A DNA stretch of 64,000 nucleotides from sequence record MZ956763.1; one strand, 5' to 3'. The notes beneath the pieces were generated by a model that saw only the letters and a list, made by a program, of their open reading frames with translations, was not told the DNA's origin and ran no database searches. A program made the position numbers and the translations under genes. This document shows, piece after piece, positions 94-33,590 of this stretch. Position 1 is the first letter of the stretch; each line of letters opens with the position of its first letter. This DNA comes from a phage.

Positions 94-549
94 ATGATTT
101 TTTGCAGCTTCCAAAAAAGAATTATTGAGATTCTATACAATAAGTTTGGGACAGATAACACATTTGACTCAAATGAAGCTATCGAAGCCCTACAAGAAGG
201 AAGTGATTACATCAAAAAACAGCCAATAGCCAACATCAGATACTACTTGACTCAGATGAGAAAGTGGGGTGTGCTCATCGTGGTAGGACAGATTAAGCAA
301 CAAGGGAGGATGCTCATCAACCAATTAAATAGAGGTTTTATTGAGAAGCACATTCAGCTAGACTATTTACTTAAAGAGCCACGAAATCAACGTGAAGAGC
401 AGCAAAAAGACTTAAGTGATGGTGTAGGTGTGTCTCCAGACATAAAATTCTTTATTGGTGAGTTGATGTTTGATACACTCCAAGATGCTGTTGAACACTG
501 CAAAAAGTATATTATCAAAGTAAAACGTGCAAAAATTATTTGGGAGTAA
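94..549 (+). CDS. hypothetical protein, tandem paralog family (copy A1)
   Basis: ORF 151 aa; paralogous to 971..1435; C-terminus ends ...EHCKKxxIxxKRxKxIWE as in the three following genes. Confidence 0.6.
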   Translation: MIFCSFQKRIIEILYNKFGTDNTFDSNEAIEALQEGSDYIKKQPIANIRYYLTQMRKWGVLIVVGQIKQQGRMLINQLNRGFIEKHIQLDYLLKEPRNQREEQQKDLSDGVGVSPDIKFFIGELMFDTLQDAVEHCKKYIIKVKRAKIIWE

Positions 550-553
550 TAAC

Positions 554-949
554 ATGTTTGAGCTTCTGAAGGTTCTGTATATAAATTTTGGCTATGATAA
601 AACATTTTCTGGCTCACAGCTAACTAAGGTTTTTAATAAATATCTACCACATGCTTCAATCAGGGATAAAGCTAATTGGTCTCACAGATTACGTAAAAGT
701 GGGTATATTAGCGTTGTTGGAGCGACAGGCTTTAATAATGAGTATCTTATGAGAATCAATGAAAGCAAAGCTAAAAAGGTGCTTTTAAATTGTAATAACC
801 ATCAACAAAAGGATGAAGAGGTTAGTGTAGGTGAAGTAGGGTACTTCATAGGTGACATACACTTTACCAGTATGGAGGCAGCAGTTGAGCATTGTAAGAG
901 AACGGTTATCCAAACAAAAAGAAAGCGTATTGTTTGGGAAGAAGTTTAA
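554..949 (+). CDS. hypothetical protein, tandem paralog family (copy B1)
   Basis: ORF; start moved to ATG at 554 (MFELLKVLY..) behind GGGAG RBS; paralogous to 1440..1820. Confidence 0.55.
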   Translation: MFELLKVLYINFGYDKTFSGSQLTKVFNKYLPHASIRDKANWSHRLRKSGYISVVGATGFNNEYLMRINESKAKKVLLNCNNHQQKDEEVSVGEVGYFIGDIHFTSMEAAVEHCKRTVIQTKRKRIVWEEV

Positions 950-970
950 ACATTTGATTAGGAATACACT

Positions 971-1435
971 ATGATTTTTTGCAATTTACAGAAGCACGTA
1001 ATAGAGATTTTATACAAAACCTTCGGGACAGAAAACACTTTTGACTCTAATGAAGCAATTGACGCATTAAGAGAGAATAGCCTCTTTATACGAGGCCAGT
1101 CAATCAGTAATACCCGTGGGTATCTAACAATGTTAAGACAGTCTGGTGTACTACTGACTGTAGGGCAGGTAAAAAGCAAAGGTAGACTAAGTATTAATCA
1201 ATTAAATCGAGCCTTTATGGAGAAGCATATACAACTGTCAAGGATGCTAGATAATACGCGTGAAGAGTTGGGGAGTTCACAAAAAGCAAGTTCATCTGAT
1301 GTTAAAGATGTGGATGTACAACCTGATGTAAGATACTTTATTGCTGATGTTATGTTTAAAACACTCGATGAAGCTATTGAGCACTGCAAAAAGCACCTTA
1401 TTAAAGTTAAACATGCAAAAGTTATTTGGGAGTGA
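971..1435 (+). CDS. hypothetical protein, tandem paralog family (copy A2)
   Basis: ORF 154 aa, N-terminus MIFCNLQKHVIEILYKTFGTENTFDSNEAI nearly identical to copy A1. Confidence 0.6.
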   Translation: MIFCNLQKHVIEILYKTFGTENTFDSNEAIDALRENSLFIRGQSISNTRGYLTMLRQSGVLLTVGQVKSKGRLSINQLNRAFMEKHIQLSRMLDNTREELGSSQKASSSDVKDVDVQPDVRYFIADVMFKTLDEAIEHCKKHLIKVKHAKVIWE

Positions 1436-1439
1436 TGCT

Positions 1440-1820
1440 ATGATTGAACTGTTAAAAGTCCTATATAATGAGTTTGGTTATGATAAAACTTTTACTTGTT
1501 CACAGATACGTAGTATCCATGATAAGGAATTTCCAAATGTATCCAAGACAAACAAGTCAACTCGGTTCAATCGTCTTCGCCAGAGAGGTTACATTAAAAT
1601 AGTTGGATACAAGAATAACTCTTTCGAGTATGTAATGCAGATTAACAGAGAAGTTTCAAGTAAAATACTTGAAGAGCCAACAGCCGAAGAACAAAAGATA
1701 CAAGATGGTGAAGTTCGCTTCTTTGTGGAGAAGGAAAGTTTTGGGTCAATAGATGAAGCTATCGAATATTGTAAAAAGAACATTATCCAGATAAAGCGTA
1801 GAAAGGTTATTTGGGAATAA
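1440..1820 (+). CDS. hypothetical protein, tandem paralog family (copy B2)
   Basis: start at ATG 1440 (MIELLKVLYNEFGYDKTF) right after stop of previous gene; paralog of 554..949. Confidence 0.55.
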   Translation: MIELLKVLYNEFGYDKTFTCSQIRSIHDKEFPNVSKTNKSTRFNRLRQRGYIKIVGYKNNSFEYVMQINREVSSKILEEPTAEEQKIQDGEVRFFVEKESFGSIDEAIEYCKKNIIQIKRRKVIWE

Positions 1821-1837: not shown

Positions 1838-2719
1838 ATGAAAACATCTATCCGTGTTACAGTTCATTCACCGACTAAAGGGACTCACGAAGAAGAGTTT
1901 AACATTATCCAATTCCCTTCTGGTGAGATTGGTGGACACTTTTCACAAGAGCTTGTTGATTTCACTGCTTATGCAGCATCATCTATCAACAATGTAATCA
2001 TGATTGTGAAAGGTTATGATAAGGACACATTGTTTGCTGTGGCACTCGCTAAAGAAGCAATTGATGATTTAATTCCTCATGATTATGCCTTAAAGACTGT
2101 CATCTTTTACTACTTACCAAATGCACGATATGACCGTCACATGTTTAAAGGTGATGCAGCAGCTTTGAAGGTTTTTGCTAAACAGGTTAATGCAATGGGG
2201 TTTGGTGCAGTCTGTGCAGTTGACCCTCACAGCTATGTACCAGATAACCTGTTTAACTGCTTCCAAAGTATTCCTCAAAATGAAATTGCAGTCCACTATG
2301 CAAATGACCCACTGGTTGATTACTTAGTAGCCCCAGATGCAGGTGCTGCTAAGAAGATTGCAGAGACTGCTAAAGAGGTGGATAAACCATATATCACAAT
2401 GTCTAAGGTGCGCAACCTTAAGACTGGCGAAATTACTGGTATGCGAATCCTTGATGATGTTGATTTGACAGATAAAACCGTCATGATTCTGGACGATATC
2501 TGTGATGGCGGTCGAACATTCATAGAAGCAGCTAAACATCTTCGTGAAGCAGGTGCAAAACGTGTGGAACTCTATGTAACACATGGTATCTTTTCTAAAG
2601 GTGTTGAAAACCTTCTTGACAATGGTATTGACCACATCTACACTACAAACTCTTTAGGGGAAGCTAAAGACCGTGGTTTAACACATTATGGTCAAGTTAC
2701 TGTAGCAAACCTTGATTAA
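1838..2719 (+). CDS. ribose-phosphate pyrophosphokinase (PRPP synthetase)-like protein
   Basis: type-I PRTase/PRPP-binding motif VMILDDICDGGRT; size ~290 aa; hairpin terminator downstream. Confidence 0.7.
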   Translation: MKTSIRVTVHSPTKGTHEEEFNIIQFPSGEIGGHFSQELVDFTAYAASSINNVIMIVKGYDKDTLFAVALAKEAIDDLIPHDYALKTVIFYYLPNARYDRHMFKGDAAALKVFAKQVNAMGFGAVCAVDPHSYVPDNLFNCFQSIPQNEIAVHYANDPLVDYLVAPDAGAAKKIAETAKEVDKPYITMSKVRNLKTGEITGMRILDDVDLTDKTVMILDDICDGGRTFIEAAKHLREAGAKRVELYVTHGIFSKGVENLLDNGIDHIYTTNSLGEAKDRGLTHYGQVTVANLD

Positions 2720-2765
2720 AACTTTATAGGGGGCTTTTAAGCCCCATTTTGAGAGAGATTAAAAG

Positions 2766-4547
2766 ATGACTAAATCACTTTATGCAGTACCAGCAGGTTT
2801 AAACGCAGATGCTTACAAATCTGGTCATGTTTACCAGTACCCTAGTGCAACAGATTACTTGATGTTTAACCTGACACCACGTAGTGATAAATGGTTTAAC
2901 AGCCCTTTAGCAATTGATGGTGTAGTAGCTTTTGGTATTCAACGTTTTGTTAAAGATTACTTGATAGACCACTGGAACGCCACCTTCTTTGAACGTGACA
3001 AAAAAGAAGCAATTGACGAAATCTTAGAAGTCATGAACGGTGTTCTGGGTAAAGATGCTATTGGTCGAGAACATTGGGAAGCACTTCACGACTTAGGTTA
3101 TCTACCAGTTGAGGTATACGCTGTAGAAGAAGGTACAGTTGTCCCTATGCGTGTTCCAATGATTGTATTCCAGAACACTGTTTCAGGTTTCCATTGGGTA
3201 GCGGGATATCTGGAAGATGCTTTCTCTGCTGAGATTTGGAAGGCTTGTACCATTGCAACTATTGCATTGCACTACAAACGTATCTGTAAGAAGTGGTCTG
3301 ACCTTACTTGTGACAATGACTTGCATTTACCTTATCAGTGCCATGACTTCGCTATGCGTGGTATGTCCGGCTTTACCGATGACGCATTTAACGCTGTAGG
3401 TCACTTAACCAGCTTTAAAGGGACTGATAGCTTCCCTGCTGTGTATACAGCTAAACGCATCTATGGGCAGTCCTATCCAATTTCAGATATTGGTGGCTCT
3501 GTACCAGCCACTGAACACTCTGTCATGTGTGCAAACATTGCTTGGGAAGGTGGGGATGAGTTGATTGAAGAAGAAAGACGCTTTAAAGGTGAGTTACAAA
3601 CCTTCCGTCGTTTCTTAACAGAAACTTACCCAACTGGTATTGTAAGTATTGTTTCAGATACTTATAATTTCTGGAGAACTGTATCAGTGATACTACCAGA
3701 ACTCCGTAAAGAGATTATGGAACGTGATGGCAAACTGGTAATTCGTCCTGACTCTGGAGACCCTGTACATATTGTCACAGGTTATAAAGCAATACATTTA
3801 GAGTGTGCTAAAAAGGCTTATTACGAACACCTAAGCAAGCTGGAAGCCAGCGACACAATGTTGAATGCTGTTCTGAACATGAAGCTTGAAAACATTAGCT
3901 ATGGTATTGCTGGGTGGCTACTGTCAGAAGGCTACGAAATGGTTGTTGACAGAGAAGACTTTGAAGTTGCTGATACAGTGATGTTGAAAAACGCTTATAT
4001 GGTTGGTTCTGCAAACGTTGTAACACGTCCTGTAGCAGAGATTGATGGAGCTATCAAGACACTGTATCACATCTTTGGAGGAACTATCAACTCTAAAGGT
4101 TTTAAAGTACTGGATGAGCACATTGGCCTTATTTATGGTGACTCTATCACGTTGGAACGTGCAAACGAAATCCTGAAGCGTTTGTATGAAATGGGTTTTG
4201 CAAGCTCTAACGTAGTGTTTGGTGTAGGTTCTTACACTTACCAGTACATGACTCGTGACACCTTTGCATTTGCTGTCAAAGCAACTCTTGCAAGCATTGG
4301 TGGTAAAGAGATTATGCTTGCAAAAGACCCTAAAACAGATAGTGGTGTTAAGAAATCTGCCTTTGGTGGTGTAGCACCTATGTGGGATGGTGATAAGCTG
4401 AAAGCTGTAGATGGCTATGGATTCCAGAGTTTTGCAGATGTACTTGACCACCCAGCTTGTGCCTTACGTTTAGTCTTTAGTGACTCTGAGCAGTTCGGTT
4501 ACACGACTCTTGGTGATATTCGAAATAATATTGACAAGCAGCTTTAA
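2766..4547 (+). CDS. nicotinamide phosphoribosyltransferase (NAMPT)-like protein
   Basis: 593 aa; N-terminal ADAYKSGHVYQYP resembles NAMPT TDSYKVTHYKQYP; adjacent to PRPP-synthetase-like gene. Confidence 0.75.
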   Translation: MTKSLYAVPAGLNADAYKSGHVYQYPSATDYLMFNLTPRSDKWFNSPLAIDGVVAFGIQRFVKDYLIDHWNATFFERDKKEAIDEILEVMNGVLGKDAIGREHWEALHDLGYLPVEVYAVEEGTVVPMRVPMIVFQNTVSGFHWVAGYLEDAFSAEIWKACTIATIALHYKRICKKWSDLTCDNDLHLPYQCHDFAMRGMSGFTDDAFNAVGHLTSFKGTDSFPAVYTAKRIYGQSYPISDIGGSVPATEHSVMCANIAWEGGDELIEEERRFKGELQTFRRFLTETYPTGIVSIVSDTYNFWRTVSVILPELRKEIMERDGKLVIRPDSGDPVHIVTGYKAIHLECAKKAYYEHLSKLEASDTMLNAVLNMKLENISYGIAGWLLSEGYEMVVDREDFEVADTVMLKNAYMVGSANVVTRPVAEIDGAIKTLYHIFGGTINSKGFKVLDEHIGLIYGDSITLERANEILKRLYEMGFASSNVVFGVGSYTYQYMTRDTFAFAVKATLASIGGKEIMLAKDPKTDSGVKKSAFGGVAPMWDGDKLKAVDGYGFQSFADVLDHPACALRLVFSDSEQFGYTTLGDIRNNIDKQL

Positions 4548-4564
4548 AAGTATATGATAAGAGG

Positions 4565-4586
4565 CTCCTACGGGAGCCTTTTTTAA
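4565..4586 (+). terminator. intrinsic terminator
   Basis: GGCTCC-TACG-GGAGCC hairpin followed by TTTTTT. Confidence 0.7.
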
Positions 4587-4601
4587 TTTCTGGAGAATGC
4601 T

Positions 4602-5473: not shown

Positions 5474-7840
5474 ATGCGCATGGTAAACGACCACGCAGAA
5501 GTGATTAAGAGTTCAACTTCTTTAGAGACGTCTCAAGCACAGATTACAATGACACCTGAAATGTTCAGCCTTTTGAGTTCAGGTGTATACACATTCAAAG
5601 AAAGGGCAGTGATTCGTGAACTGTCATGTAACGCAGTAGATGCTCAAAAAGAAGCTGGAAAAGAGAACATCCCATTCCATGTGCATTTACCTACTCGTTT
5701 TGAGCCTTACTTTGAAGTTCGTGATTTTGGAACTGGTTTAACCCATGACAAAGTAATGAGTTTGTATCTGAACTACGGGGCTTCTACGAAGAATGACTCT
5801 AATGATTACATTGGTGCAATGGGTATCGGCTCAAAATCCCCATTTGCAATTGCTCAGTCATTCACAGTATCTAGCTATGTTGATGGTGTTGCTAATAAGT
5901 ACTCTGTTTACCTTGAGAATGGTATCCCTCAAGTAACTAAGCTTACTACCAACCAAACAAATGAACCCAATGGTTTAGCTGTACGTGTAGCAGTTGCTGA
6001 CCATCGTATTTCAAAGTTCTTTGAAGAGGCTGGTCACGTATACTCATACTTTGCTGTAAAACCAGAAAGTAACATTGTATATGATGATGTATTAGCAGAT
6101 ATGAATGTCATTGCCCGTGAAGAGGGTGTTTATGATGCTATGATTCATAAGCAAAGCTGGCGTTCTAGTGGCAACAGGACAGAGTTTAATGTGGTGATGG
6201 GTAATATTGCCTACCCAGTGAACATGGAAGCATTACTTGGTGATGATTTCTTCAAAGTCTTGCCAGAGTTTTTCCGTAGGAGCGTAGACCTTGTAAACAT
6301 CTACATGCCTATTGGTTCAGTGGCTATTGCAGCTTCTCGTGAAGCATTGCAGATGAATGACACGACAAAAAATGTTATCATTGAGGCTACTAAAAAGATA
6401 ACTGAAGCCATTACAAAGGATGTTATCAAGAAAGTTAATAGCCAACCTACACTCATGGATGCTGCACAGGCTTATGCTGAGTTACGTTTGAACTCACGAG
6501 AGATGTTTAATGCTGTGTGTCCAAAGCTAGAGTGGGGAGGCGTTAAGCTTGATTCTCTGGAAGAAGAATTACTAAATATTCGTCGTGGAATTATCTACGC
6601 AGAAGACGGCTCAGTCATTTATGAACGTGACGGTAAAGGTAATATTAAGGTTGATAGGAACGGGAACAATATCCCTAAAGTAGATTATCTTTATGACCCA
6701 GTTGCTTATGTCAAGTTCAACTCTTTAGAGAGTAAGATTCGTGCAACATCGCTTTCCTACACTCAAGAGGCAAGTATGTTCAATATCTTTGGCGCAATGC
6801 GTAAAAGCCAAATTGAACAGTTTTTGTTTGTTATCAATGACCGTCGCAATAAAAATGGTACTGAGAAGACTGTAGGACGCAATCAAATCTTGCGTGGTGC
6901 ATGTCGAGACTATGCCAGTGAGTCAAATCTGTTTCACAGATACAACGGTATTGTCTTTGTATTCTCTACTGAGAAAGAGTTAGACGACTTAATCAATCTG
7001 CACAAACTTGATAAAAGCTTGTTAAAGATTGTGAAGATGTCTGATAAGGAACACCATTATCAGCGTAAAGAAGCTGTAAGAGGTGTTGTAAAACTCTGGA
7101 AAGCTGTTCCAGCAGAAGGTGTAGCTTCATACACAGAGGTGTCAGAAGACTTAGACACAATTGAAGAGCCTCAACTTTATATCAAGGCAGTAGGTGATAC
7201 TGTTGATGGTGAATGTTTTTGCTCATCTCCAGATGATGTAGCTAAGTCAGTTGCCAATGTCATTGGAAAGACAGTCTATGTTTTCCGAAAAGCAAATTGG
7301 AAAAAGATACCAGAAGACTGGATTGAAGTAGATGAGAAGCTCTTGAACGACAGCTTAACTGATGTTCACTGGATTAACCATAACAGATATATGACACGTA
7401 TCTACATGAATGGTGTCCTTGACCTCACAAGCAGTTGGATTATTGCCAGAAACTTTACGTTCAATAACAAGAAGATTTCTCGTGGCTATTGCTATTCACG
7501 AGACACAAACAAAACTATCTTCTTAGAAGGTAATGAAGATGCTGTTGATGCAATGTTTGGTAAAATCCAATACGTTGCTGCACCGTTTGCATACACTTAC
7601 ACTATTAGCGTGTTGCAAGATTTGAAAAGTTGTCTTGATAATGATACAAAGCTTTACAAGAAAATTAAGAAAGCTGGTGACCGCATGGTCATTAAGGTGA
7701 CAAACTACCTTTCAAAAAGAAAACAAGAAAACTTCTTGCTTTCTCATTTAGATTGGAATAAAGTGTCACCCATCGAAGTGAGTAAGTTCTTAGGCTTTGA
7801 TGTGAAGTGTGTTCCAGAAGGGACTACAATTTACGATTAA
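5474..7840 (+). CDS. rIIA: rIIA-like protein with N-terminal GHKL (HATPase_c) ATPase domain
   Basis: 788 aa; Bergerat-fold motifs ELSCNAVDA (ExxxNxxDA), DFGTG, GAMGIGSKS near N-terminus; size/architecture like T4 rIIA. Confidence 0.5.
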   Translation: MRMVNDHAEVIKSSTSLETSQAQITMTPEMFSLLSSGVYTFKERAVIRELSCNAVDAQKEAGKENIPFHVHLPTRFEPYFEVRDFGTGLTHDKVMSLYLNYGASTKNDSNDYIGAMGIGSKSPFAIAQSFTVSSYVDGVANKYSVYLENGIPQVTKLTTNQTNEPNGLAVRVAVADHRISKFFEEAGHVYSYFAVKPESNIVYDDVLADMNVIAREEGVYDAMIHKQSWRSSGNRTEFNVVMGNIAYPVNMEALLGDDFFKVLPEFFRRSVDLVNIYMPIGSVAIAASREALQMNDTTKNVIIEATKKITEAITKDVIKKVNSQPTLMDAAQAYAELRLNSREMFNAVCPKLEWGGVKLDSLEEELLNIRRGIIYAEDGSVIYERDGKGNIKVDRNGNNIPKVDYLYDPVAYVKFNSLESKIRATSLSYTQEASMFNIFGAMRKSQIEQFLFVINDRRNKNGTEKTVGRNQILRGACRDYASESNLFHRYNGIVFVFSTEKELDDLINLHKLDKSLLKIVKMSDKEHHYQRKEAVRGVVKLWKAVPAEGVASYTEVSEDLDTIEEPQLYIKAVGDTVDGECFCSSPDDVAKSVANVIGKTVYVFRKANWKKIPEDWIEVDEKLLNDSLTDVHWINHNRYMTRIYMNGVLDLTSSWIIARNFTFNNKKISRGYCYSRDTNKTIFLEGNEDAVDAMFGKIQYVAAPFAYTYTISVLQDLKSCLDNDTKLYKKIKKAGDRMVIKVTNYLSKRKQENFLLSHLDWNKVSPIEVSKFLGFDVKCVPEGTTIYD

Positions 7841-7919: not shown

Positions 7920-9029
7920 ATGACTACTAAAACTAAAGCACAGATTGACGCAGAAATTTACGAACTGGTTAAAGAAGGTAAGCTGACTAAAACAGCTATT
8001 GCACAGAAGTTCAATACTTCAACCCGTTCAGTTGGTCGTGCTGTAGAGCGTCACGAAGCAACCTTAAAAGGGAAGAAGAAGGTGACTTCTAAGCCAGCTA
8101 AGAAGACTTTGAAGCAAGTTGCTAAATCAGTTAAAAAGAAAGCTGACAAACCAGTTGAAAAGGCCGTTAAAGACGCTGTACAGAAAGCTCCAGTAAATAA
8201 ACTGCATGAAGCTATGCAGAAAGATGACAAGATTGAGTACATGATTACTGGTGACTCTGTAATTATGACTTACGGTTCAGAATCTGAAATTGTTGAGTCT
8301 ACTCATCCGAACTATCAAGAGATTGTAGTTCATGTTGTGAAAGGTGAGTTCAAGAAAGCATTTGAACTGATGAACATTCGTAAGTCTATCGAAAACTTCA
8401 CTCAGGGTGCTATCACAATCAAAGGTGACAAGCTCTTCTACGGTGCTGTTGAGATGCGTTCTACTCTGGTTGACCGTATTCTTCATATGATGAAAACTGG
8501 TGATAAAGGTTTTGAACGACTTGTAATGTTCTTCGAAAAACTGATGGAAAACCCATCTAAAGATTCTGTAGAACAACTTTGGGGATTTGTATCACACCTT
8601 GATGTTGAAATTGATGAAGAAGGCTACATCATTGGTTGGAAGAAAGTCTCTACTCGTGAAGGCAAGCTGGTTGACTCTCACACCTACAAAGTGCCTAATG
8701 ATTTGGGTAACATTGTAGAGATGCCACGTTGGATGGTTGATAACAACCGTAACGTAACTTGCTCTCAAGGTCTTCATGTTGGTGCTTGGGATTATGTTCG
8801 TTGCTTCTCAGGTGATACCATCCTGAAGGTTCGTGTCCATCCACGAGATGTTGTATCTGTTCCGACTGATTACAACGATATGAAGATGCGCTCCTCTCGT
8901 TATGAAGTTGCAGCAATCGTTGATAATCAACGTAAAGTGCTGAAAGCATGGGATGGTAAGACTGAAGCTTTGCATGTCATCGTTGGCACTGCTGGTGAAC
9001 TCATCTCTCAACGTAAACGTGAAATCTAA
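7920..9029 (+). CDS. hypothetical protein (possible rIIB-like, by position after rIIA-like gene)
   Basis: ORF 369 aa; lysine-rich N-terminal region; position only. Confidence 0.4.
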   Translation: MTTKTKAQIDAEIYELVKEGKLTKTAIAQKFNTSTRSVGRAVERHEATLKGKKKVTSKPAKKTLKQVAKSVKKKADKPVEKAVKDAVQKAPVNKLHEAMQKDDKIEYMITGDSVIMTYGSESEIVESTHPNYQEIVVHVVKGEFKKAFELMNIRKSIENFTQGAITIKGDKLFYGAVEMRSTLVDRILHMMKTGDKGFERLVMFFEKLMENPSKDSVEQLWGFVSHLDVEIDEEGYIIGWKKVSTREGKLVDSHTYKVPNDLGNIVEMPRWMVDNNRNVTCSQGLHVGAWDYVRCFSGDTILKVRVHPRDVVSVPTDYNDMKMRSSRYEVAAIVDNQRKVLKAWDGKTEALHVIVGTAGELISQRKREI

Positions 9030-12380: not shown

Positions 12381-13166
12381 ATGGGTATTGTAAAAATTAT
12401 TAACGGTGATATCTTTTCAGCATTTGATAAAGGTAAGTTTGACATCATCGGTCAGGGTTGCAACTGTATGAATTTAATGGGTGCAGGTATCGCTGACAAG
12501 ATTTCTAAACTTTACCCAAAAGCATATGAGACCGATACAGAAGTTTATCTATATGCAGGTGGCATTCGTCACAAACCCTGTGAAAATTTACTGGGTAATT
12601 TCTCTGTAGCACGTTTAAAACAAGGTCGTATAGCTAACCTTTACACCCAACTTCATACTGGTAAAGATGCCCGATACAGTGCTTTAGAGTCATCTTTGAA
12701 GCAACTTAACAGATACTGTGAAGTCAATCAGTTGAAGAAAGTTGGTCTGCCTATGATTGGTGCAGGTATCGGTGGACTTGACCCTCAAGCTGTCACAGTT
12801 ATCATTAATCAGGTGATGAAGGGTGTAGATGTATATCTGTATGTCTACGAGACAGAGATGTACAACGAGTTACACTCAGGTTGGAAGAACTACTGTGAAC
12901 CAGAATACTTTGCAGGTGTAGCAGTGTTCACAGATAACGCAGTTACCCTCTTCAGACGAAGAAAAGGTAAGATACATCAAAGTAACCCTCCGGTTGAAAA
13001 GATGTCTCTAAGTAACGCTCTAGTTACCCACCTGTCGAAGAGCAATCACAGGATTGCAGTAACATTTGGCAGTGATGCAGATGCTTACATCTATGCAAGA
13101 ACTGATGAGGATATCGAGACGATTTTCTCTTCACCAGAAGTTACCTTCTTAGACGCAAAGAACTAA
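12381..13166 (+). CDS. Macro-domain (ADP-ribose binding/processing) protein
   Basis: N-terminus IINGDIFSAFDKGKFDIIGQGCNCMNLMGAGIADKI matches macrodomain GDIT...DAIVNAAN..GGG pattern; second Gly-rich loop GLPMIGAGIGGLDP. Confidence 0.65.
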   Translation: MGIVKIINGDIFSAFDKGKFDIIGQGCNCMNLMGAGIADKISKLYPKAYETDTEVYLYAGGIRHKPCENLLGNFSVARLKQGRIANLYTQLHTGKDARYSALESSLKQLNRYCEVNQLKKVGLPMIGAGIGGLDPQAVTVIINQVMKGVDVYLYVYETEMYNELHSGWKNYCEPEYFAGVAVFTDNAVTLFRRRKGKIHQSNPPVEKMSLSNALVTHLSKSNHRIAVTFGSDADAYIYARTDEDIETIFSSPEVTFLDAKN

Positions 13167-18674: not shown

Positions 18675-18736
18675 ACTAATCAACGGGAGGGATGACCTCC
18701 CTACTAAATAAAGTCCTTAAACTAGGAGTTATCAAG

Positions 18737-19000
18737 ATGGAAAACGTAGAATTAACCACACTTTTACAAATTGCAACCGACAAAGAAAACGTAGCATTAA
18801 TTCACCGCATCGAAAGTGATTTGTTCAATGGTGAAATCATCAAAGAGTCTTACGAAGTTGTCGGATTCAAAGATGGTAAAACGTTTGGATTCTTTGACCT
18901 CGAAAAAGGCAACGCTATTACAAAATATGATGTTNTATCTTGTGAGATTCTTACAAAATACAACGAAAAAAGGCTTGCAACATACGCNAACATGCAGTAA
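18737..19000 (+). CDS. hypothetical protein (early; contains ambiguous bases)
   Basis: start at ATG after GGAG (MENVELTT..); two N in sequence. Confidence 0.4.
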   Translation: MENVELTTLLQIATDKENVALIHRIESDLFNGEIIKESYEVVGFKDGKTFGFFDLEKGNAITKYDVXSCEILTKYNEKRLATYXNMQ

Positions 19001-25715: not shown

Positions 25716-27100
25716 TATGCCTCCCCTGCTGGGTTAACTGTAACTGTTGCCGCATTAGATGTTACAGAGCCACCTGCACCAGTCACTACACAAGTGTAGC
25801 TTCCTGAATCAGCAGTGGTTGCACCTTCTTTGGTGTAAGTTGCAGCAGTTGCATCGAGGATGTCTTCCTCACCTTTCTTCCACTGGTAACCTGTCGCACC
25901 TGTTGCCGCAACATTCAGCGTTAAGGTCTCACCTTCAGTGATTTCTTGATTGGTTGGCTGTTGAGTGATTACTGGAAGTGCATTCACAGTAACCGTTGCT
26001 GCGTTAGATGTGACTGTTGTACCACCAGCACCAGTAACTACACAGGTGTAGGAACCAGCATCGGCAGGAACTGCGTTAGCTTTCGTGTAAGTCGCACCAG
26101 TTGCGCTAGGGATGTTCACATTGTCCTTTTTCCACTGGAAACCTTCCGCACCTGTCGCCTCAACACTCAGTGTCAAAGAGTTGCCCTCATTAACTACCTG
26201 ATTGGTTGGCTGCTTGGTAATAACTGGCAAAGCATTTACCGTGACAGTTGCAGGGCTAGAAGTAACAGAACCACCTGCACCTGTTACAACGCAAGTATAT
26301 GAACCTGCATCTGCTGGAAGCGCACCAGACTTGCTATAGGTAGCGTTTGTAGCTGAAGGAATGTCAGAGCCATCTTTCTTCCATTGGTAACCTGTTGCAC
26401 CTGTTGCAGTCACTTCCAAGTTGATGTTCCCACCCTCATTAACGGTCTGACCAGAAGGCTGCTGTGTAATCACAGGCAGTGCGTTGACAGTAACTGTTGC
26501 CGCATCTGAGGTAACACTTGTTCCAGCCTCTCCAGATACAACACAAGTGTATGAACCTGCATCAGAAGGTAATACAGACTGTTTTGTGTAGGTTGCAGAG
26601 GTGGCACTAGTGATATCCTCACCACCCTTTTTCCATTGATATCCAGTGGCATTCGTTGCAACAACACTTAGGGTAAGCGTACCACCTTCATTTACTGTTT
26701 GATTGGTTGGCTGCTGAGTGATTGCTGGTGGCTTGATAGCATCCTTCAACTTAGCATTCAACATTGAGAATGGTTTAACTCTTGCCAGCCATTCACAATA
26801 AACTGTATCAACATCTTTACCATTGATAATTGCATATTGTAAGTCCATGAAGAAGTCAGAAGTTCTCATTTGAGCACCAATGCTGTAAAGCAACTCATCA
26901 CTAAATGGAACTTTGTAGTCTGGTTTGTAGTCAAACTCCTCAACTTCTGCAATATCAGCTTCAGGCCAATACGAACTATAGGTAAGCGGTAAAATAGCCT
27001 CTTGATATGTTCTAAAATCATATCTCTTACCAGCTTTTACGTTTGCAATGAAGCCCTTCACAAACTCTTTGAAGTCTGGGTAAGTCTTTGCTTTAATCAT
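25715..27100 (-). CDS. protein with N-terminal domain plus tandem Ig-like (I-set-like) repeats
   Basis: repeated ~95-aa units NALPVITQQPTNQ..GATGYQWKK..ATYTK..ADAGSYTCVVTGAGG..TS.AATVTV; N-terminal ~120 aa paralogous to 27097..27468. Confidence 0.7.
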   Translation of the reverse strand: MIKAKTYPDFKEFVKGFIANVKAGKRYDFRTYQEAILPLTYSSYWPEADIAEVEEFDYKPDYKVPFSDELLYSIGAQMRTSDFFMDLQYAIINGKDVDTVYCEWLARVKPFSMLNAKLKDAIKPPAITQQPTNQTVNEGGTLTLSVVATNATGYQWKKGGEDITSATSATYTKQSVLPSDAGSYTCVVSGEAGTSVTSDAATVTVNALPVITQQPSGQTVNEGGNINLEVTATGATGYQWKKDGSDIPSATNATYSKSGALPADAGSYTCVVTGAGGSVTSSPATVTVNALPVITKQPTNQVVNEGNSLTLSVEATGAEGFQWKKDNVNIPSATGATYTKANAVPADAGSYTCVVTGAGGTTVTSNAATVTVNALPVITQQPTNQEITEGETLTLNVAATGATGYQWKKGEEDILDATAATYTKEGATTADSGSYTCVVTGAGGSVTSNAATVTVNPAGEA

Positions 27101-30759: not shown

Positions 30760-30836
30760 CTCTGTTTAGCTCAGCTTGGTAGAGCGTTCCGTTTGGGGCG
30801 GTAAGGCCGGAGGTTCAAGTCCTCCAACAGAGACCA
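30760..30836 (+). tRNA. tRNA-Pro (anticodon TGG)
   Basis: acceptor CTCTGTT/AACAGAG, T-arm GGAGG-TTCAAGT-CCTCC, anticodon loop TTTGGGG, CCA encoded. Confidence 0.8.
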
Positions 30837-30843
30837 AATTAAT

Positions 30844-30921
30844 GTTCCAGTAGACAAAATGGTAAAGTCACCACTCTTTCAAAGTGGATATCTGAGGGTT
30901 CAAATCCCTTCTGGAACGCCA
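30844..30921 (+). tRNA. tRNA-Glu (anticodon TTC)
   Basis: acceptor GTTCCAG/CTGGAAC, anticodon arm CCACT-CTTTCAA-AGTGG, T-loop TTCAAAT. Confidence 0.8.
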
Positions 30922-30926
30922 GTTTT

Positions 30927-31003
30927 GACAGAAGACCAATTACAGCAAACTTAATCTTATTCATCTGAAGGTAAATCGGACAAAGAAGAGATTTGGTCTG
31001 GTC
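30927..31003 (+). ncRNA. structured element A (conserved ACAGAAGACC...GGTCTGG terminal stem)
   Basis: 5' GACAGAAGACCAATTACAGCAA, 3' ATTTGGTCTGGTC; family members at 31095, 31576, 31663. Confidence 0.45.
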
Positions 31004-31013
31004 ATTAAGAATT

Positions 31014-31089
31014 GCGGGTATAGAGAAAGGGCGTCTCACATGTCTCATTAGCATGGTATCGGCAGGTTCGACTCCTGCACCCGCCTCCA
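31014..31089 (+). tRNA. tRNA-Met (anticodon CAT)
   Basis: D-stem GAGA/TCTC, anticodon arm CATGT-CTCATTA-GCATG, T-arm GCAGG-TTCGACT-CCTGC; acceptor pairing imperfect by eye. Confidence 0.65.
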
Positions 31090-31094
31090 AATTT

Positions 31095-31160
31095 ACAGAA
31101 GACCGTTTACAGCAATATTTATTAAATTTTTAGCGGAAAAATTGAAAGATACGGTCTGGT
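31095..31160 (+). ncRNA. structured element B (ACAGAAGACCG...CGGTCTGG stem)
   Basis: same terminal stem motif and TTACAGCAA box as element A. Confidence 0.45.
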
Positions 31161-31172
31161 AATACTAAACAT

Positions 31173-31249
31173 GGTTAGGAAGCACATAAGGTATGTGCGG
31201 TCGCCTGTTAAGCGAATGGCACAGGGTTCGAATCCCTGACTAACCGCCA
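31173..31249 (+). tRNA. tRNA-Asn (anticodon GTT)
   Basis: acceptor GGTTAGG/ACTAACC, D-stem GCAC/GTGC, loop CTGTTAA, T-arm CAGGG-TTCGAAT-CCCTG. Confidence 0.8.
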
Positions 31250-31318
31250 AATTTAGGAGAGAAGCGATTGCTCACCGATTTGTAAGGTGCAAGTCCTTAG
31301 CCTGAATAGAAATTAAAT

Positions 31319-31405
31319 GTGTCGTTATCCCGTAGATGGTAGCGGTGGGGACTGTAAATCCCTTGTCATTGAGACTCGGTAGGTTCGACTCCTACACGGC
31401 ACACC
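31319..31405 (+). tRNA. tRNA-Tyr (anticodon GTA), class II
   Basis: acceptor GTGTCGT/ACGGCAC, anticodon arm GGGGA-CTGTAAA-TCCCT, long variable arm, T-loop TTCGACT. Confidence 0.75.
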
Positions 31406-31411
31406 AATAAA

Positions 31412-31489
31412 GGCTATGTAGTTTAATAGGGTTAAAATACTCCCCTGTCACGGGAGATGATGTGAGTTCAAGTCTCATCGTAGCCGCCA
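31412..31489 (+). tRNA. tRNA-Asp (anticodon GTC)
   Basis: acceptor GGCTATG/CGTAGCC, anticodon arm CTCCC-CTGTCAC-GGGAG, T-loop TTCAAGT. Confidence 0.8.
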
Positions 31490-31575
31490 AATTATAATAA
31501 GTATTTCAAAATGATGTTTTGAGAGGGCTATTTAGCCCCTCCCTTAAAGAGTTCTTACGAGTATTCTTTAAAGGA

Positions 31576-31651
31576 GCAGAAGACCAAATACAGCAAGTTA
31601 CTTAAAATTTCAAGCCAATTTAATTTTGAAAAATTTAAAACTTGGTCTGGC
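31576..31651 (+). ncRNA. structured element C (GCAGAAGACCAAATACAGCAA...TTGGTCTGG)
   Basis: same terminal stem motif family. Confidence 0.45.
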
Positions 31652-31662
31652 TCAACAAATTT

Positions 31663-31794
31663 ACAGAAGACCGTTTACAGCAAAACTTAAACAATCTATT
31701 TCTCGGTAAAGAAAAGGAGAAGGTTCGATTCCTTCACTCGGCAGATGTCGAGTTGGTGTAATGGTAGCACTTAAGATGGTAAACAACGGTCTGG
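31663..31794 (+). ncRNA. structured element D with internal permuted tRNA-like domain (candidate YrlA-like Y RNA)
   Basis: terminal stem ACAGAAGACCGTTT/AAACAACGGTCTGG; internal order T-arm (GAAGG-TTCGATT-CCTTC), acceptor 3' strand ACTCGGC, loop AGAT, acceptor 5' strand GTCGAGT, D-arm GTGTAATGGTAGCAC. Confidence 0.5.
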
Positions 31795-31938
31795 TAATTA
31801 TCTTTGTAGATAAGTTATTAAGCTTACCTGTGAGTATGCGACCACAAAGGGTGAAAGGGTAAATTCTAGATTTAAACCCAAAAAGGCACATCGCTACAGA
31901 CCTTAAGCAAGTCTGGGTAGCTTATCTACAAAGATAAT
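31795..31938 (+). repeat. 19-bp perfect inverted repeat flanking a 106-nt segment
   Basis: AATTATCTTTGTAGATAAG at 31795-31813 and exact reverse complement CTTATCTACAAAGATAATT at 31920-31938. Confidence 0.85.
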
Positions 31939-31943
31939 TTAAT

Positions 31944-32019
31944 GGAAGTGTAGCAGAATGGTGATGCGGCAGACTTTTAATCTGACAGGCGATGGGTTCG
32001 AATCCCTCCACTTCTACCA
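31944..32019 (+). tRNA. tRNA-Lys (anticodon TTT)
   Basis: acceptor GGAAGTG/CACTTCT, anticodon arm GCAGA-CTTTTAA-TCTGA, T-loop TTCGAAT; T-stem weak by eye. Confidence 0.65.
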
Positions 32020-32023
32020 AAAT

Positions 32024-32100
32024 GGTTCAGTCGCAGATAAGGTAATGCAAGGGTTTCATAAGCCCTATGAATGTGGGTTCGATTCCCATCTGAACCTCCA
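32024..32100 (+). tRNA. tRNA with CAT anticodon (Met, fMet or Ile-lysidine)
   Basis: acceptor GGTTCAG/CTGAACC, anticodon arm AGGGT-TTCATAA-GCCCT, T-arm GTGGG-TTCGATT-CCCAT. Confidence 0.7.
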
Positions 32101-32102
32101 AT

Positions 32103-32177
32103 TGTGGGTTAGCATAAATGGTAATGCAAACGGCTGATAACCGTTAGAAGAGGGTTCGATACCCTCACCTACAACCA
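32103..32177 (+). tRNA. tRNA-Ile (anticodon GAT)
   Basis: acceptor TGTGGGT/ACCTACA, D-stem GCAT/ATGC, anticodon arm AACGG-CTGATAA-CCGTT, T-loop TTCGATA. Confidence 0.8.
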
Positions 32178-32192
32178 ATTTCAATAGAGTTG

Positions 32193-32221
32193 TTGACATT
32201 GAGATGTGACTACTTTATAGT
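32193..32221 (+). promoter_or_regulatory. sigma70-like promoter TTGACA-17-TATAGT inside tRNA cluster
   Basis: consensus -35, good -10; followed by ~290 nt without tRNA. Confidence 0.55.
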
Positions 32222-32514
32222 AACTAAAATACTTCACAATATGTATAATTCAAACACCAATACATGAGCGTTAGACGTAACACAATGTGGGGAAATTTGT
32301 TGTACATATTCTGAATAGTTTTCGTTGCGTAGCGTCTATTTTGCAAATTTAAAATAAATGCAAACGACAATGTTTTTCTGGCAGTAGCTTGATAGGCTAA
32401 ACACCAGTGAGGTCTTCCAATCCCTCATCAAAGAATTTGGCGTACTCGCCCACGGTATGATTAATAAGGTGGGCATCTTTAAGGGCTTTCTAAGAGAGTC
32501 TTTAAAGATAATTA

Positions 32515-32596
32515 CGGGGCGTATCTCAGCGGTCTTCTAAACCGCCGTTAACCGAGTAAGTGGAGTATGCGGGTTCGAGTCCTGCCGCCTCGACCA
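32515..32596 (+). tRNA. atypical tRNA-like gene, possible tRNA-Arg (anticodon TCT)
   Basis: acceptor CGGGGCG/CGCCTCG + A + CCA, T-arm GCGGG-TTCGAGT-CCTGC, arm GCGGT-CTTCTAA-ACCGC; no canonical D-arm found by eye, 23-nt segment before T-arm. Confidence 0.45.
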
Positions 32597-32738
32597 ATTT
32601 AGTTAGCAGATTACTTAGACGACCTAAGCGGGTCTTCCTGTAGGGAGGTGGTCTGTATCTCATGTTTTCCAGAACATGTAAATAATCTGAGAAGGGGCTT
32701 TACAGTGTTGAGATAATACGGTAAGCTTCGAATTATAG

Positions 32739-32822
32739 TGTGGGACGATGTTAAGACTCTAAGGCATGAGCAACGGCCTCCAAAACCGTTTCAAAGGGGT
32801 TCAACTCCTCCGTCCCATGCCA
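32739..32822 (+). tRNA. atypical tRNA, possible tRNA-Trp (anticodon CCA)
   Basis: acceptor GTGGGAC/GTCCCAT + G + CCA, anticodon arm ACGGC-CTCCAAA-ACCGT, T-loop TTCAACT; D-region ~8 nt longer than canonical. Confidence 0.5.
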
Positions 32823-32835
32823 AAGTCTTATTAGG

Positions 32836-32923
32836 GGTAGGTAGCGGCTAATGGCAGCCAAACAGTCTTGAAAACTGTTGCCACTGTAGAGATACGGTGA
32901 GGGTTCGACTCCTTTACTTACCG
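32836..32923 (+). tRNA. tRNA-Ser (anticodon TGA), class II
   Basis: acceptor GGTAGGT/ACTTACC, anticodon arm ACAGT-CTTGAAA-ACTGT, 20-nt variable arm, T-arm GAGGG-TTCGACT-CCTTT. Confidence 0.7.
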
Positions 32924-33258: not shown

Positions 33259-33265
33259 AATTAAT

Positions 33266-33341: not shown

Positions 33342-33347
33342 GACATT

Positions 33348-33423: not shown

Positions 33424-33429
33424 ATTAGT

Positions 33430-33587: not shown

Positions 33588-33590
33588 ATT

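What the first reader, a model, noticed from the sequence alone, without database searches (positions are those of the whole stretch)
1838..4547. Two-gene NAD+ module: PRPP-synthetase-like enzyme next to a NAMPT-like enzyme
The gene pair has the motifs of ribose-phosphate pyrophosphokinase (VMILDDICDGGRT) and nicotinamide phosphoribosyltransferase (ADAYKSGHVYQYP). Such pairs in phages are interpreted either as classical NAD+ salvage or as the ADPR-based NAD+ reconstitution pathway (Adps + Namat) that counters NAD+-depleting defence systems. Sequence reading alone cannot tell which chemistry is used.
Basis: partly seen in the sequence, partly recalled or inferred. Interest (0 to 1): 0.55.

Follow-up and report, generated by a model that had tools for sequence, protein, structure and literature searches.

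The report
Known phage NAD+ rebuilding operon (NARP1)
The two genes are this Felix O1-like phage's copy of NARP1, an already described phage pathway that rebuilds NAD+ from ADP-ribose and nicotinamide after a bacterial defence system has destroyed it, so the finding is real but not new.

Summary
Two co-directional genes fill exactly 1838-2719 (293 aa, PRPP-synthetase-like) and 2766-4547 (593 aa, NAMPT-like), and both quoted motifs are present.

The window is a Felixounavirus genome, collinear with Escherichia phage JohannRWettstein (Bas63). The pair sits where Bas63 genes 79-80 sit and matches them at 78% and 98% amino-acid identity. NARP1 (Adps + Namat) was discovered by deleting those two Bas63 genes.

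- The second protein carries the published Namat adenine-clamp signature (GSYTYQYMTRD). True Nampt enzymes compared here lack it.
- Its best solved-structure match is the Namat crystal structure.
- The first protein keeps every mapped Adps ligand and catalytic residue, has the Adps-type DDICDG loop, and lacks the C-terminal module of true PRPP synthetases.
- No NMN adenylyltransferase was found in the window.

Verdict: an ordinary NARP1 operon, already known, low interest.

Open side observations:
- Namat has an unexplained ~85-residue folded insertion.
- This phage's Adps allele differs from the tested one in its N-terminal two-thirds.
- A rare four-gene cassette abuts the operon.
- A Macro-domain homologue of the NARP1-associated phosphatase Adpp lies 7.8 kb downstream.

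The parts
1838..2719 (+). adps: ADP-ribose pyrophosphate synthetase (PRPS-like), 293 aa. This is the majority Felixounavirus allele.
   Evidence: ORF; families. 78% identical to Bas63_0079 over the full length with no gaps. The residues equivalent to ICP1 Adps F18, R87, H121, D161, K185, D212, D213, C215, D216, S220 and F221 are F26, R97, H131, D167, K190, D219, D220, C222, D223, T227 and F228. The protein ends about 22 residues before E. coli Prs does.
2480..2518 (+). It contains the acceptor-ribose Asp pair and the Adps-type PP loop C222-D-G-G-R-T227.
   Evidence: Cys at this position in 57 of 57 Adps-family sequences, Ile in E. coli Prs (DDMIDTGGT). PP-loop role from PMC13586617.
2729..2751 (+). 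Small G+C-rich hairpin (6-bp stem) followed by AUUUUG in the 46-nt adps-namat spacer. Possibly a partial terminator or an RNA-stability element.
   Evidence: Sequence and Bas63 comparison (stem kept, loop changed). Fold: z -1.8 only, and it was not picked up by the terminator scan. Function inferred, weak.
2766..4547 (+). namat: nicotinamide ADP-ribose transferase (NAMPT-like), 593 aa.
   Evidence: 98% identical to Bas63_0080. Best PDB sequence and fold match is SPbetaL1 Namat 9w5w/9w5x (431 bits, TM 0.95 on the target). The catalytic core D15, Y17, F195, R198, D221, A248, H251, R327, D329, G458 and D459 is conserved.
2874..2912 (+). Selectivity-clamp loop (SCL), aa 37-49 TPRSDKWFNSPLA. K42-W43 lie at the adenine-stacking position.
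   Evidence: Alignment to SPbetaL1 R40. Identical to Bas63, for which PMC12774641 describes the residue after Lys as the stacking residue.
4227..4259 (+). Selectivity-clamp helix (SCH) signature GSYTYQYMTRD, aa 488-498.
   Evidence: Fits the published Namat consensus GS-X-phi-X-phi-X-phi-TRD, with aromatic Y490 and Y494 (PMC12774641). The NARP2-lineage homologue (T4-like Vibrio phage nt-1) has GGGLLQQLDRD and H. ducreyi NadV has GAQTYQRNTRD.
3537..3590 (+). Lineage-specific insertion A in Namat (aa ~258-275, helical).
   Evidence: Absent from SPbetaL1, ICP1 and the enterobacterial homologues. Present, at variable length, wherever insertion B is present.
3789..4046 (+). Lineage-specific insertion B in Namat (aa ~342-427): a confidently predicted alpha/beta subdomain of unknown role.
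4559..4592 (+). Terminator-like hairpin (10-bp stem plus T run) 12 nt after the namat stop. Likely the 3' end of the operon.
   Evidence: A consensus match only: the count of such sites in the region is not above the shuffles.
12381..13166 (+). Possible unlinked accessory gene: a Macro-domain protein (261 aa), homologue of the NARP1-associated ADPR-1''-phosphate phosphatase Adpp. Its link to the operon is NOT shown.
   Evidence: Pfam Macro 31.9 bits against a cut-off of 22. phrog_335 at 377 bits, the same PHROG as Vibrio phage Gary Adpp. 28% identity, E 8e-15, end to end with Gary Adpp.

Best explanation
This is a NARP1 operon (NAD+ reconstitution pathway 1). A host defence system with a SIR2, TIR or SEFIR effector cleaves NAD+ into ADP-ribose and nicotinamide. 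The first enzyme, Adps (1838-2719), then transfers the beta,gamma-pyrophosphate of ATP onto the 1'' hydroxyl of the terminal ribose of ADP-ribose, giving ADPR-pyrophosphate and AMP. The second enzyme, Namat (2766-4547), replaces that pyrophosphate with nicotinamide and regenerates NAD+ directly. Two enzymes and one ATP therefore undo the damage, whichever defence system caused it, and the pathway stays idle when no ADP-ribose is being produced.

Shown here: gene structure, orthology, conserved residues and discriminating motifs.
Taken from the literature on the orthologous or homologous operons: the chemistry and the anti-defence phenotype.
Inferred: that this phage's own Adps allele behaves the same way.
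For: 1. Orthology. The window is collinear with Bas63 from 1891 to 64000. The pair occupies the position of bas63_0079/0080, just upstream of three small ORFs, rIIA and rIIB. The proteins have identical lengths and are 78% and 98% identical.
2. Experiments on Bas63 (bioRxiv 10.1101/2024.02.11.579819). Deleting genes 79-80 sensitised the phage about 20-fold to SIR2-HerA and deepened NAD+ loss. ADPR-PP appeared only with the wild-type phage plus the defence system. Protection did not need host pncC or nadR.
3. Namat signature. GSYTYQYMTRD matches the published consensus, K42-W43 occupy the clamp loop, and all core residues are kept. Two Nampt comparators (Vibrio phage nt-1, H. ducreyi NadV) lack the two aromatic residues.
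4. Structure. phmmer gives 431 bits to the Namat crystal sequence against 145-179 bits for the Xanthomonas and mammalian Nampt chains. An AF2 model (pLDDT 93) hits 9w5x 'Namat' first, with TM 0.95 on the target.
5. Adps. Every ligand or catalytic residue mapped from the ICP1 Adps structures is conserved. The invariant Cys of DDICDG is present, and the C-terminal alpha11-alpha12 region of PRPS is missing. Every PRPS equivalog model in NCBIfam scores far below its cut-off, for example 103.6 against 296.
6. No NadD- or NadR-like gene in the window, and no gene content beyond Bas63 apart from the cassette of four ORFs of unknown function at 94-1820 and a 267-nt stretch at 18729-18995 that I did not examine.
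Against: - No experiment exists for this particular phage.
- Its Adps allele differs from the tested Bas63 allele at 64 of 293 positions, concentrated in aa 1-180. Nucleotide identity there is only 57-62% over the first 270 nt.
- In vitro biochemistry was done on SPbetaL1 and ICP1 proteins, because Bas63 Adps did not purify well.
- One ICP1 adenine contact is not conserved: F92 is M102 here, and Met in 50 of 57 family members.
- The Namat here carries about 100 extra residues not present in any solved Namat.
Confidence: 0.93

Rival explanations
1. Classical salvage. The first enzyme is a true PRPP synthetase, the second a true Nampt making NMN, and host NadR or PncC-NadD-NadE complete NAD+ synthesis, boosting NAD+ for phage metabolism in general.
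For: Pfam, PHROG and GenBank annotations all read this way, and TIGR01251 is just above its cut-off at 119.7 against 113. SPbetaL1 Namat has residual PRPP-dependent NMN synthesis in vitro (PMC12774641).
Against: Bas63 still overcame SIR2-HerA in a pncC nadR double-deletion host. SPbetaL1 Adps gave no measurable product in the ribose-5-phosphate control reaction but did make ADPR-PP. The PRPS equivalog models fail by a factor of 3 to 10. The Adps-type PP loop is present and the PRPS C-terminal module is missing. The Namat clamp motif is present.
Confidence: 0.03
2. NARP2-type pathway: Nampt makes NMN from PRPP, and a phage Nmnat adenylates it to NAD+.
For: The second protein belongs to the same superfamily as the KVP40 and nt-1 Nampt.
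Against: tblastn with E. coli NadD and NadR finds nothing in the window (best E 1.4). The window adds no genes to Bas63 except ORFs of unknown function. Osterman et al. found no phage carrying both pathways. The protein is only about 28% identical to the nt-1 Nampt and lacks its GGGLLQQ motif. An Adps gene is adjacent.
Confidence: 0.01
3. Extended NARP1 acting in trans. The operon works as NARP1, and the unlinked Macro-domain protein at 12381-13166 additionally converts ADPR-1''-phosphate (the product of aRES defence) into ADP-ribose. That would give the phage a dispersed form of the three-gene NARP1-AP pathway.
For: The Macro protein and the characterised Adpp of Vibrio phage Gary fall in the same PHROG and align over the whole domain (28% identity, E 8e-15). 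Full-length copies occur in 258 phage records, about the number of Felixounavirus genomes carrying NARP1. The published survey looked only two genes either side of NARP1.
Against: Homologues occur in 2847 phage records, including T-even phages that have no NARP1. The best solved relatives by sequence are DarG/TARG1-type macrodomains (E 6e-5), not Poa1p (E 0.2). This points equally to reversal of DarT DNA ADP-ribosylation or to O-acetyl-ADPR deacetylation. There is no operon link, and the protein has an extra ~100-residue C-terminal part of unknown function.
Confidence: 0.2

Closest known systems
NARP1 operon of Escherichia phage JohannRWettstein (Bas63), genes bas63_0079 (Adps) and bas63_0080 (Namat); Osterman et al., bioRxiv 10.1101/2024.02.11.579819
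   Same: Same genus, same genomic position, same gene lengths (293 and 593 aa), the same spacer hairpin, and the same downstream genes through rIIA and rIIB. Namat is 98% identical and Adps 78%.
   Different: The N-terminal ~180 residues of Adps belong to a different allele (53-87% amino-acid identity per 30-residue block). A four-ORF cassette (94-1820) is inserted directly upstream here and is absent from Bas63.
SPbetaL1 NARP1 (biochemically characterised Adps; Namat crystal structures 9w5w and 9w5x, PMC12774641)
   Same: Same two-gene order, same catalytic core and same clamp signature. The AF2 model superposes on 9w5x with TM 0.95 on the target.
   Different: Foldseek reports 37-38% identity across the fold alignment. 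Namat here has two insertions (aa ~258-275 and ~342-427), about 100 residues in total. The clamp loop uses K42-W43 instead of R40.
Vibrio phage ICP1 NrsA/NrsB (Adps structures, PMC13586617; bioRxiv 10.1101/2024.06.17.599363)
   Same: Acceptor and catalytic residues, the PP-loop Cys-Asp-Gly, and the truncated C-terminus are shared.
   Different: About 37% identity over the C-terminal two-thirds. ICP1 F92 is Met here. PP-loop residues A218-A219-S220 are G-R-T here. ICP1 Namat lacks the insertions.
NARP1-AP of Vibrio phage Gary (Adps-Adpp-Namat, bioRxiv 10.64898/2026.01.28.702374)
   Same: Adps and Namat homologues are present, and a Macro-domain homologue of Adpp exists in the same genome.
   Different: Here the Macro gene is not in the operon: it lies 7.8 kb downstream. 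It is also 100 residues longer. None of the seven ORFs flanking the pair matches Macro in Pfam or the Macro-phosphatase family phrog_335 in PHROGs.
NARP2 Nampt (KVP40 and nt-1 NadV) and bacterial NadV (H. ducreyi, 9ke8)
   Same: Same fold and the same nicotinamide and ribose-phosphate binding residues, including the catalytic His.
   Different: These lack the two aromatic clamp residues (GGGLLQQLDRD and GAQTYQRNTRD). They pair with Nmnat or stand alone rather than sitting next to Adps.

Membership tests
NARP1 Adps (ADPR pyrophosphate synthetase) | PRPS-like two-domain protein encoded next to a Namat gene | tested here: met
   Pfam Pribosyltran and Pribosyl_synth, PHROG 619 over 279 of 282 profile positions. 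Namat starts 46 nt downstream on the same strand.
NARP1 Adps (ADPR pyrophosphate synthetase) | Conserved ADPR, ATP and catalytic residues of ICP1 Adps (F18, R87, H121, D161, K185, D212, D213, D216; PMC13586617) | tested here: met
   F26, R97, H131, D167, K190, D219, D220 and D223 in a 58-sequence alignment. Only F92 differs (M102), as in 50 of 57 family members.
NARP1 Adps (ADPR pyrophosphate synthetase) | Remodelled PP loop conserved among Adps homologues (Cys215-Ser220 in ICP1) rather than the PRPS DTGGT loop | tested here: met
   C222-D-G-G-R-T227. Cys is invariant in 57 of 57 family members, while E. coli Prs has I-D-T-G-G-T.
NARP1 Adps (ADPR pyrophosphate synthetase) | Absence of the C-terminal alpha11-alpha12 module of PRPS, called a defining signature in PMC13586617 | tested here: met
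   At sequence level, the protein ends about 22 residues before E. coli Prs in the alignment, as do Bas63 and ICP1 Adps. No structure was modelled.
NARP1 Adps (ADPR pyrophosphate synthetase) | Makes ADPR-PP from ADP-ribose plus ATP, and not PRPP from ribose-5-phosphate | not testable with these tools
   Shown for SPbetaL1 and ICP1 homologues and, in vivo, for Bas63. Not shown for this allele.
NARP1 Namat (nicotinamide ADPR transferase) | Nampt-like catalytic core (SPbetaL1 D13, Y15, F189, R192, D215, A242, catalytic His, R306, D308, G360, D361) | tested here: met
   D15, Y17, F195, R198, D221, A248, H251, R327, D329, G458 and D459. All are invariant in the 46-sequence alignment.
NARP1 Namat (nicotinamide ADPR transferase) | [quoted passage not shown] | tested here: met
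   G488-S-Y-T-Y-Q-Y-M-T-R-D498. Negative controls nt-1 Nampt and HdNadV fail the motif.
NARP1 Namat (nicotinamide ADPR transferase) | SCL loop supplying a stacking residue (Arg at position 3, or Lys/Tyr followed by the stacking residue) | tested here: met
   TPRSDK42-W43, identical to Bas63, which the paper uses as its example of the Lys-type loop. The stacking itself is inferred.
NARP1 Namat (nicotinamide ADPR transferase) | Closer to characterised Namat than to characterised Nampt | tested here: met
   phmmer gives 431 bits to SPbetaL1 Namat, 352 to HdNadV, 179 to Xanthomonas Nampt and 145 to mammalian Nampt. The top Foldseek hits are 9w5x and 9w5w.
NARP1 Namat (nicotinamide ADPR transferase) | Prefers ADPR-PP over PRPP and yields NAD+ directly | not testable with these tools
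   Shown for SPbetaL1 Namat.
Canonical ribose-phosphate pyrophosphokinase (Prs) | Reaches the curated equivalog or subfamily scores and has the DTGGT ribose-5-phosphate loop and the C-terminal regulatory/filament module | tested here: not met
   NF002095 scores 103.6 against 296, NF002320 90.5 against 297, and all others are lower. Only the broad TIGR01251 passes, at 119.7 against 113. The loop and the C-terminus differ.
NARP2 (Nampt + Nmnat) | A phage-encoded NMN adenylyltransferase in the same genome | tested here: not met
   No NadD or NadR similarity in the 64-kb window (best E 1.4; pairwise search, so limited sensitivity). None is annotated in the collinear Bas63 genome. The ~24 kb of this genome outside the window were not seen.
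NARP1-AP (Adps-Adpp-Namat) | Macro-domain phosphatase gene within the NARP1 operon (within two genes) | tested here: not met
   The four ORFs upstream and three downstream have no Macro hit in Pfam or PHROGs. HHpred-level sensitivity was not available.
NARP1-AP (Adps-Adpp-Namat) | An Adpp-type enzyme available to the pathway | tested here: inconclusive
   An Adpp homologue exists at 12381-13166. The family is also common in phages without NARP1, and the substrate is unknown.
NARP3 (PnuC + NadR-like) | NadR-like bifunctional enzyme with a PnuC transporter | tested here: not met
   No NadR similarity in the window. PnuC was not searched. System defined in PMC13464706.

The most novel reading that the evidence does not exclude
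Felixounaviruses may run an extended NARP1 whose parts are scattered. The Macro-domain Adpp homologue 7.8 kb downstream would feed ADPR-1''-phosphate, and possibly other ADPR derivatives, into the Adps-Namat pair. If so, the share of NARP1 phages able to beat aRES-type defence is larger than the 15% counted from operon-linked genes. Separately, the conserved ~85-residue insertion domain of this Namat clade, which matches no known fold, could have a role of its own, for example docking Adps so that the labile ADPR-PP is handed over directly.
Probability: 0.2. Interest if true: 0.45.

Novelty: already known. Interest (0 to 1): 0.17.

Why it matters
NARP1 is a general counter-defence. It repairs the damage instead of blocking one sensor, so a phage that carries it escapes many NAD+-depleting systems: SIR2-HerA, DSR1/2, type I Thoeris, SEFIR and Kongming. 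Knowing that a therapeutic or typing phage of the Felix O1 group carries an intact copy helps predict its host range.

This finding adds no new principle. The operon of a sister phage is the published type example. Its value is as a clean annotation correction: GenBank records still call these genes ribose-phosphate pyrophosphokinase and nicotinamide phosphoribosyltransferase. It also points to three small open questions, namely the untested Adps allele, the Namat insertion domain and the unlinked Macro-domain gene.

Tried and rejected
- I looked for a solved Adps structure by sequence. None is in the PDB copy; the best hit is an archaeal PRPS, 4twb, at 68 bits. Adps residues were therefore mapped by alignment to the ICP1 sequence, using residue numbers from PMC13586617.
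- I considered that the four-ORF cassette and the divergent 5' part of adps arrived as one recombined block. I rejected this. Most Felixounaviruses carry this Adps allele at 94-97% nucleotide identity starting at about 1824 without the cassette, and the cassette is found in only 11 records in full and 16 in any form.
- I considered the spacer hairpin a terminator. The fold z-score is only -1.8 and it fails the terminator scan, so it stays a weak note.
- I checked the ORFs flanking the operon for Macro or RyR-type accessory genes. None was found.
- I checked for Nmnat with E. coli NadD and NadR. Nothing was found.
- I guessed Bas63's accession as MZ501111, which turned out to be Bas51. The right record, MZ501086, was found from the alphabetical order of the BASEL phage accessions.
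Full report
**1. What is there.**
The region holds two + strand genes. One runs from the ATG at 1838 to 2719 (293 aa; a longer TTG-initiated ORF begins at 1811). The other runs from 2766 to 4547 (593 aa).

Profile searches leave no doubt about the superfamilies. Protein 1 hits Pribosyltran and Pribosyl_synth, PHROG 619 (E 3.7e-97) and TIGR01251. Protein 2 hits NAPRTase and NAMPT_N, PHROG 448 (E 5e-201) and NF006629 (468 bits).

A purine-rich GAGAGA stretch precedes both start codons. The 46-nt spacer contains a small G+C hairpin followed by AUUUUG. A strong terminator-like hairpin (4559-4582) follows the second stop codon.

**2. Where the window comes from.**
The 3.5 kb around the pair matches 257 phage records, nearly all Felixounavirus (Felix O1-like myoviruses of E. 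coli, Salmonella and Shigella). The best is Escherichia phage adrianh at 97.5%.

Against the complete genome of Escherichia phage JohannRWettstein (Bas63, MZ501086), the window is collinear from 1891 to 64000 at 91-95% nucleotide identity. It crosses the ends of the Bas63 record at 35995/35996. Only 98-1890 and 18729-18995 have no counterpart. The genes downstream of the pair are three small ORFs, rIIA (5474-7840) and rIIB (7920-9029), exactly as in Bas63.

**3. Orthology with the type NARP1 operon.**
Bas63 genes 79 and 80 are annotated 'ribose-phosphate pyrophosphokinase' and 'nicotinamide phosphoribosyltransferase'. They have the same lengths as the window's genes and are 78% and 98% identical in protein, without gaps.

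Osterman et al. deleted exactly these two genes (bioRxiv 10.1101/2024.02.11.579819):
- The deletion mutant plated about 20-fold worse on SIR2-HerA cells, and NAD+ fell further.
- ADPR-pyrophosphate (m/z 720.010) appeared only with the wild-type phage plus the defence system.
- Protection survived deletion of host pncC and nadR, which rules out an NMN route.

With purified SPbetaL1 homologues, the first enzyme pyrophosphorylated ADP-ribose but gave no measurable product in the ribose-5-phosphate control reaction. The second made NAD+ from ADPR-PP plus nicotinamide. The pathway was named NARP1, with enzymes Adps and Namat, and it also counters type I Thoeris, DSR1, DSR2 and SEFIR.

**4. Can sequence decide between Adps/Namat and Prs/Nampt? 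Yes.**

*Namat.* The crystal-structure paper (PMC12774641) defines a conserved Nampt-like core plus an adenine 'selectivity clamp'. The clamp consists of a helix with the signature GS-X-phi-X-phi-X-phi-TRD, aromatic at positions 3 and 7, and a variable loop that supplies a third stacking residue.
- The window has G488-S-Y-T-Y-Q-Y-M-T-R-D498. Its loop is TPRSDK42-W43, identical to Bas63.
- All core residues are conserved: D15, Y17, F195, R198, D221, A248, H251, R327, D329, G458 and D459.
- Two negative controls fail the motif. The Nampt homologue of the T4-like Vibrio phage nt-1, which I take to be of the KVP40 (NARP2) type, reads GGGLLQQLDRD. The crystallised Nampt-type enzyme NadV of Haemophilus ducreyi (PDB 9ke8, solved with NMN) reads GAQTYQRNTRD.
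- phmmer against PDB sequences gives 431 bits to SPbetaL1 Namat, 352 to HdNadV and 145-179 to the Xanthomonas and mammalian Nampt chains.
- An AlphaFold2 model (pLDDT 93, pTM 0.91) finds the Namat crystal structure first, with TM 0.95 normalised on the target.

*Adps.* No Adps structure is in the PDB copy. I therefore mapped the residues described for ICP1 Adps (PMC13586617) through a 58-sequence alignment.
- Conserved here: F26, R97, H131, D167, the catalytic K190, D219, D220, C222, D223, T227 and F228.
- The Cys of DDICDG is invariant in the family, where E. coli Prs has DDMIDTGGT.
- The protein stops about 22 residues before E. coli Prs, consistent with loss of the alpha11-alpha12 module that the authors call a family signature.
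- All NCBIfam PRPS equivalog models score 3- to 10-fold below their cut-offs.

*Genome context.* tblastn with E. coli NadD and NadR finds nothing in the window. None of the seven ORFs flanking the pair matches Macro in Pfam or the Macro-phosphatase family phrog_335 in PHROGs.

The pair is therefore plain NARP1. It is not NARP2, not the three-gene NARP1-AP and not NARP3.

**5. Residual uncertainty.**
- The Adps here is not the Bas63 allele. Nucleotide identity is 57-62% over 1838-2107, rises to 74-86% by 2377, and is 87-97% after that. Namat is 91-97% identical throughout.
- Across phage records, Adps identities to the window fall into two groups: at least 90% in about 155 records, and 60-80% in 94 records. 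The tested Bas63 carries the minority allele.
- All mapped functional residues are the same in both alleles, so I expect the same activity. This is an inference.
- SPbetaL1 Namat also makes some NMN from PRPP in vitro, so a small salvage-type side activity cannot be excluded.

**6. Things seen beyond the finding.**

(a) *Namat insertions.* Namat of this clade has two insertions relative to the SPbetaL1, ICP1 and enterobacterial chromosomal homologues: aa ~258-275 and aa ~342-427.
- They always occur together and are conserved down to 47% overall identity (Yersinia, Pectobacterium and Erwinia phage relatives).
- The larger one is predicted with high confidence as an alpha/beta subdomain, both in the full model and on its own.
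- A word search of the Namat structure paper found no discussion of an insertion, although Bas63 Namat appears in its alignment and AlphaFold3 figure.

(b) *Macro-domain gene.* The gene at 12381-13166, orthologue of bas63_0095 'putative phosphatase', has a Macro domain.
[quoted passage not shown] It aligns with Adpp end to end (28% identity, E 8e-15).
- The published survey looked only two genes either side of NARP1.
- The link is not shown. The family occurs in 2847 phage records, including T-even phages without NARP1, and its nearest solved relatives by sequence are DarG/TARG1-type macrodomains.

(c) *Upstream cassette.* Directly upstream, 94-1820 holds four tandem ORFs in a long-short-long-short pattern. 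All hit phrog_29478, a family of unknown function. The cassette is absent from Bas63 and is present in full in only 11 of roughly 260 Felixounavirus records.

**7. Verdict.**
The system is already known, and in fact was defined in a sister phage. Interest is low. The side observations are modest leads rather than discoveries.

Noticed in passing
window 94-1820 (+): ORFs 94-549, 554-949, 971-1435, 1440-1820: Four tandem paralogous ORFs (151, 131, 154 and 126 aa; long-short-long-short, so a duplicated pair), all in phrog_29478 of unknown function with no Pfam hit, inserted directly upstream of adps. They are absent from Bas63. The full cassette is present in only 11 Felixounavirus records, for example Salmonella phage Seyj1-1 at 99.7%. 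A variable slot next to an anti-defence operon could hold further counter-defence genes.
   Followed up: partly
window 1838-2380 (5' ~60% of adps): Two Adps alleles circulate in Felixounaviruses: this one (at least 90% identity in ~155 records) and the Bas63 type (60-80% identity in 94 records). Divergence is confined to the first ~180 codons (57-62% nucleotide identity at the start). The 3' end and all of namat are ~91-97% identical. This is a recombination mosaic inside the gene, and mapped active-site residues are unchanged.
   Followed up: partly
[not shown]
   Followed up: yes
window 12381-13166 (+): A 261-aa Macro-domain protein (Pfam PF01661; phrog_335 'phosphatase'), homologous over the whole domain to the characterised ADPR-1''-phosphate phosphatase Adpp of Vibrio phage Gary (28% identity, E 8e-15). 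It lies 7.8 kb from NARP1 and has an extra ~100-aa C-terminal part with no Pfam hit. It could extend NARP1 against aRES defence, or act on other ADP-ribose conjugates, given its DarG/TARG1-like PDB hits.
   Followed up: partly
window 2729-2751, 4531-4558, 4559-4592: A conserved small hairpin plus AUUUUG sits in the adps-namat spacer; the stem is kept and the loop changed in Bas63. A near-consensus sigma-70-like site (TTGACA-16-TATGAT) overlaps the end of namat. A strong terminator-like hairpin lies 12 nt after the namat stop.
   Followed up: partly
proteins P0072-P0119 (Namat-like, 495-498 aa) and P0190, P0197, P0216, P0218, P0228 (Adps-like, 285-286 aa): Homologues on large chromosomal contigs of Klebsiella, Cronobacter, Phytobacter, Kosakonia, Kluyvera and Superficieibacter. 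The Namat-like ones that I aligned carry the Namat clamp signature (GSFTYQYNTRD) and no insertions, and Adps-like proteins occur in some of the same genera. These look like bacterial or prophage NARP1 copies in Enterobacteriaceae. Gene adjacency was not checked.
   Followed up: no
PDB 9ke8/9keo against window 2766-4547: H. ducreyi NadV, solved with NMN, scores much closer to this Namat (352 bits) than the Xanthomonas or mammalian Nampt chains do (145-179 bits). It nevertheless lacks the two aromatic clamp residues (GAQTYQRNTRD). Overall similarity alone would therefore misclassify it, and the motif is the better discriminator.
   Followed up: partly
related loci (Escherichia phages vB_EcoM_D4, vB_EcoM_I14.1, vB_EcoM_ULIM3, Felixounavirus LF110P4): In a few relatives the match to this 3.5-kb region is split in two pieces with ~470 extra bases, and three of those four records have an annotated HNH endonuclease there (the LF110P4 record has no annotation). 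A homing endonuclease has apparently entered the NARP1 neighbourhood in those phages. It is not present in the window.
   Followed up: no
window 30760-35773; 35995/35996; 25734-26723; 18729-18995: A cluster of 24 tRNA genes. The ends of the Bas63 record map to 35995/35996, so the window spans the point where that record was opened. Staggered self-similar blastn matches at 25734-26723 correspond to the Bas63 'immunoglobulin-like domain protein' and indicate internal tandem repeats. A 267-nt stretch (18729-18995) has no Bas63 counterpart.
   Followed up: no
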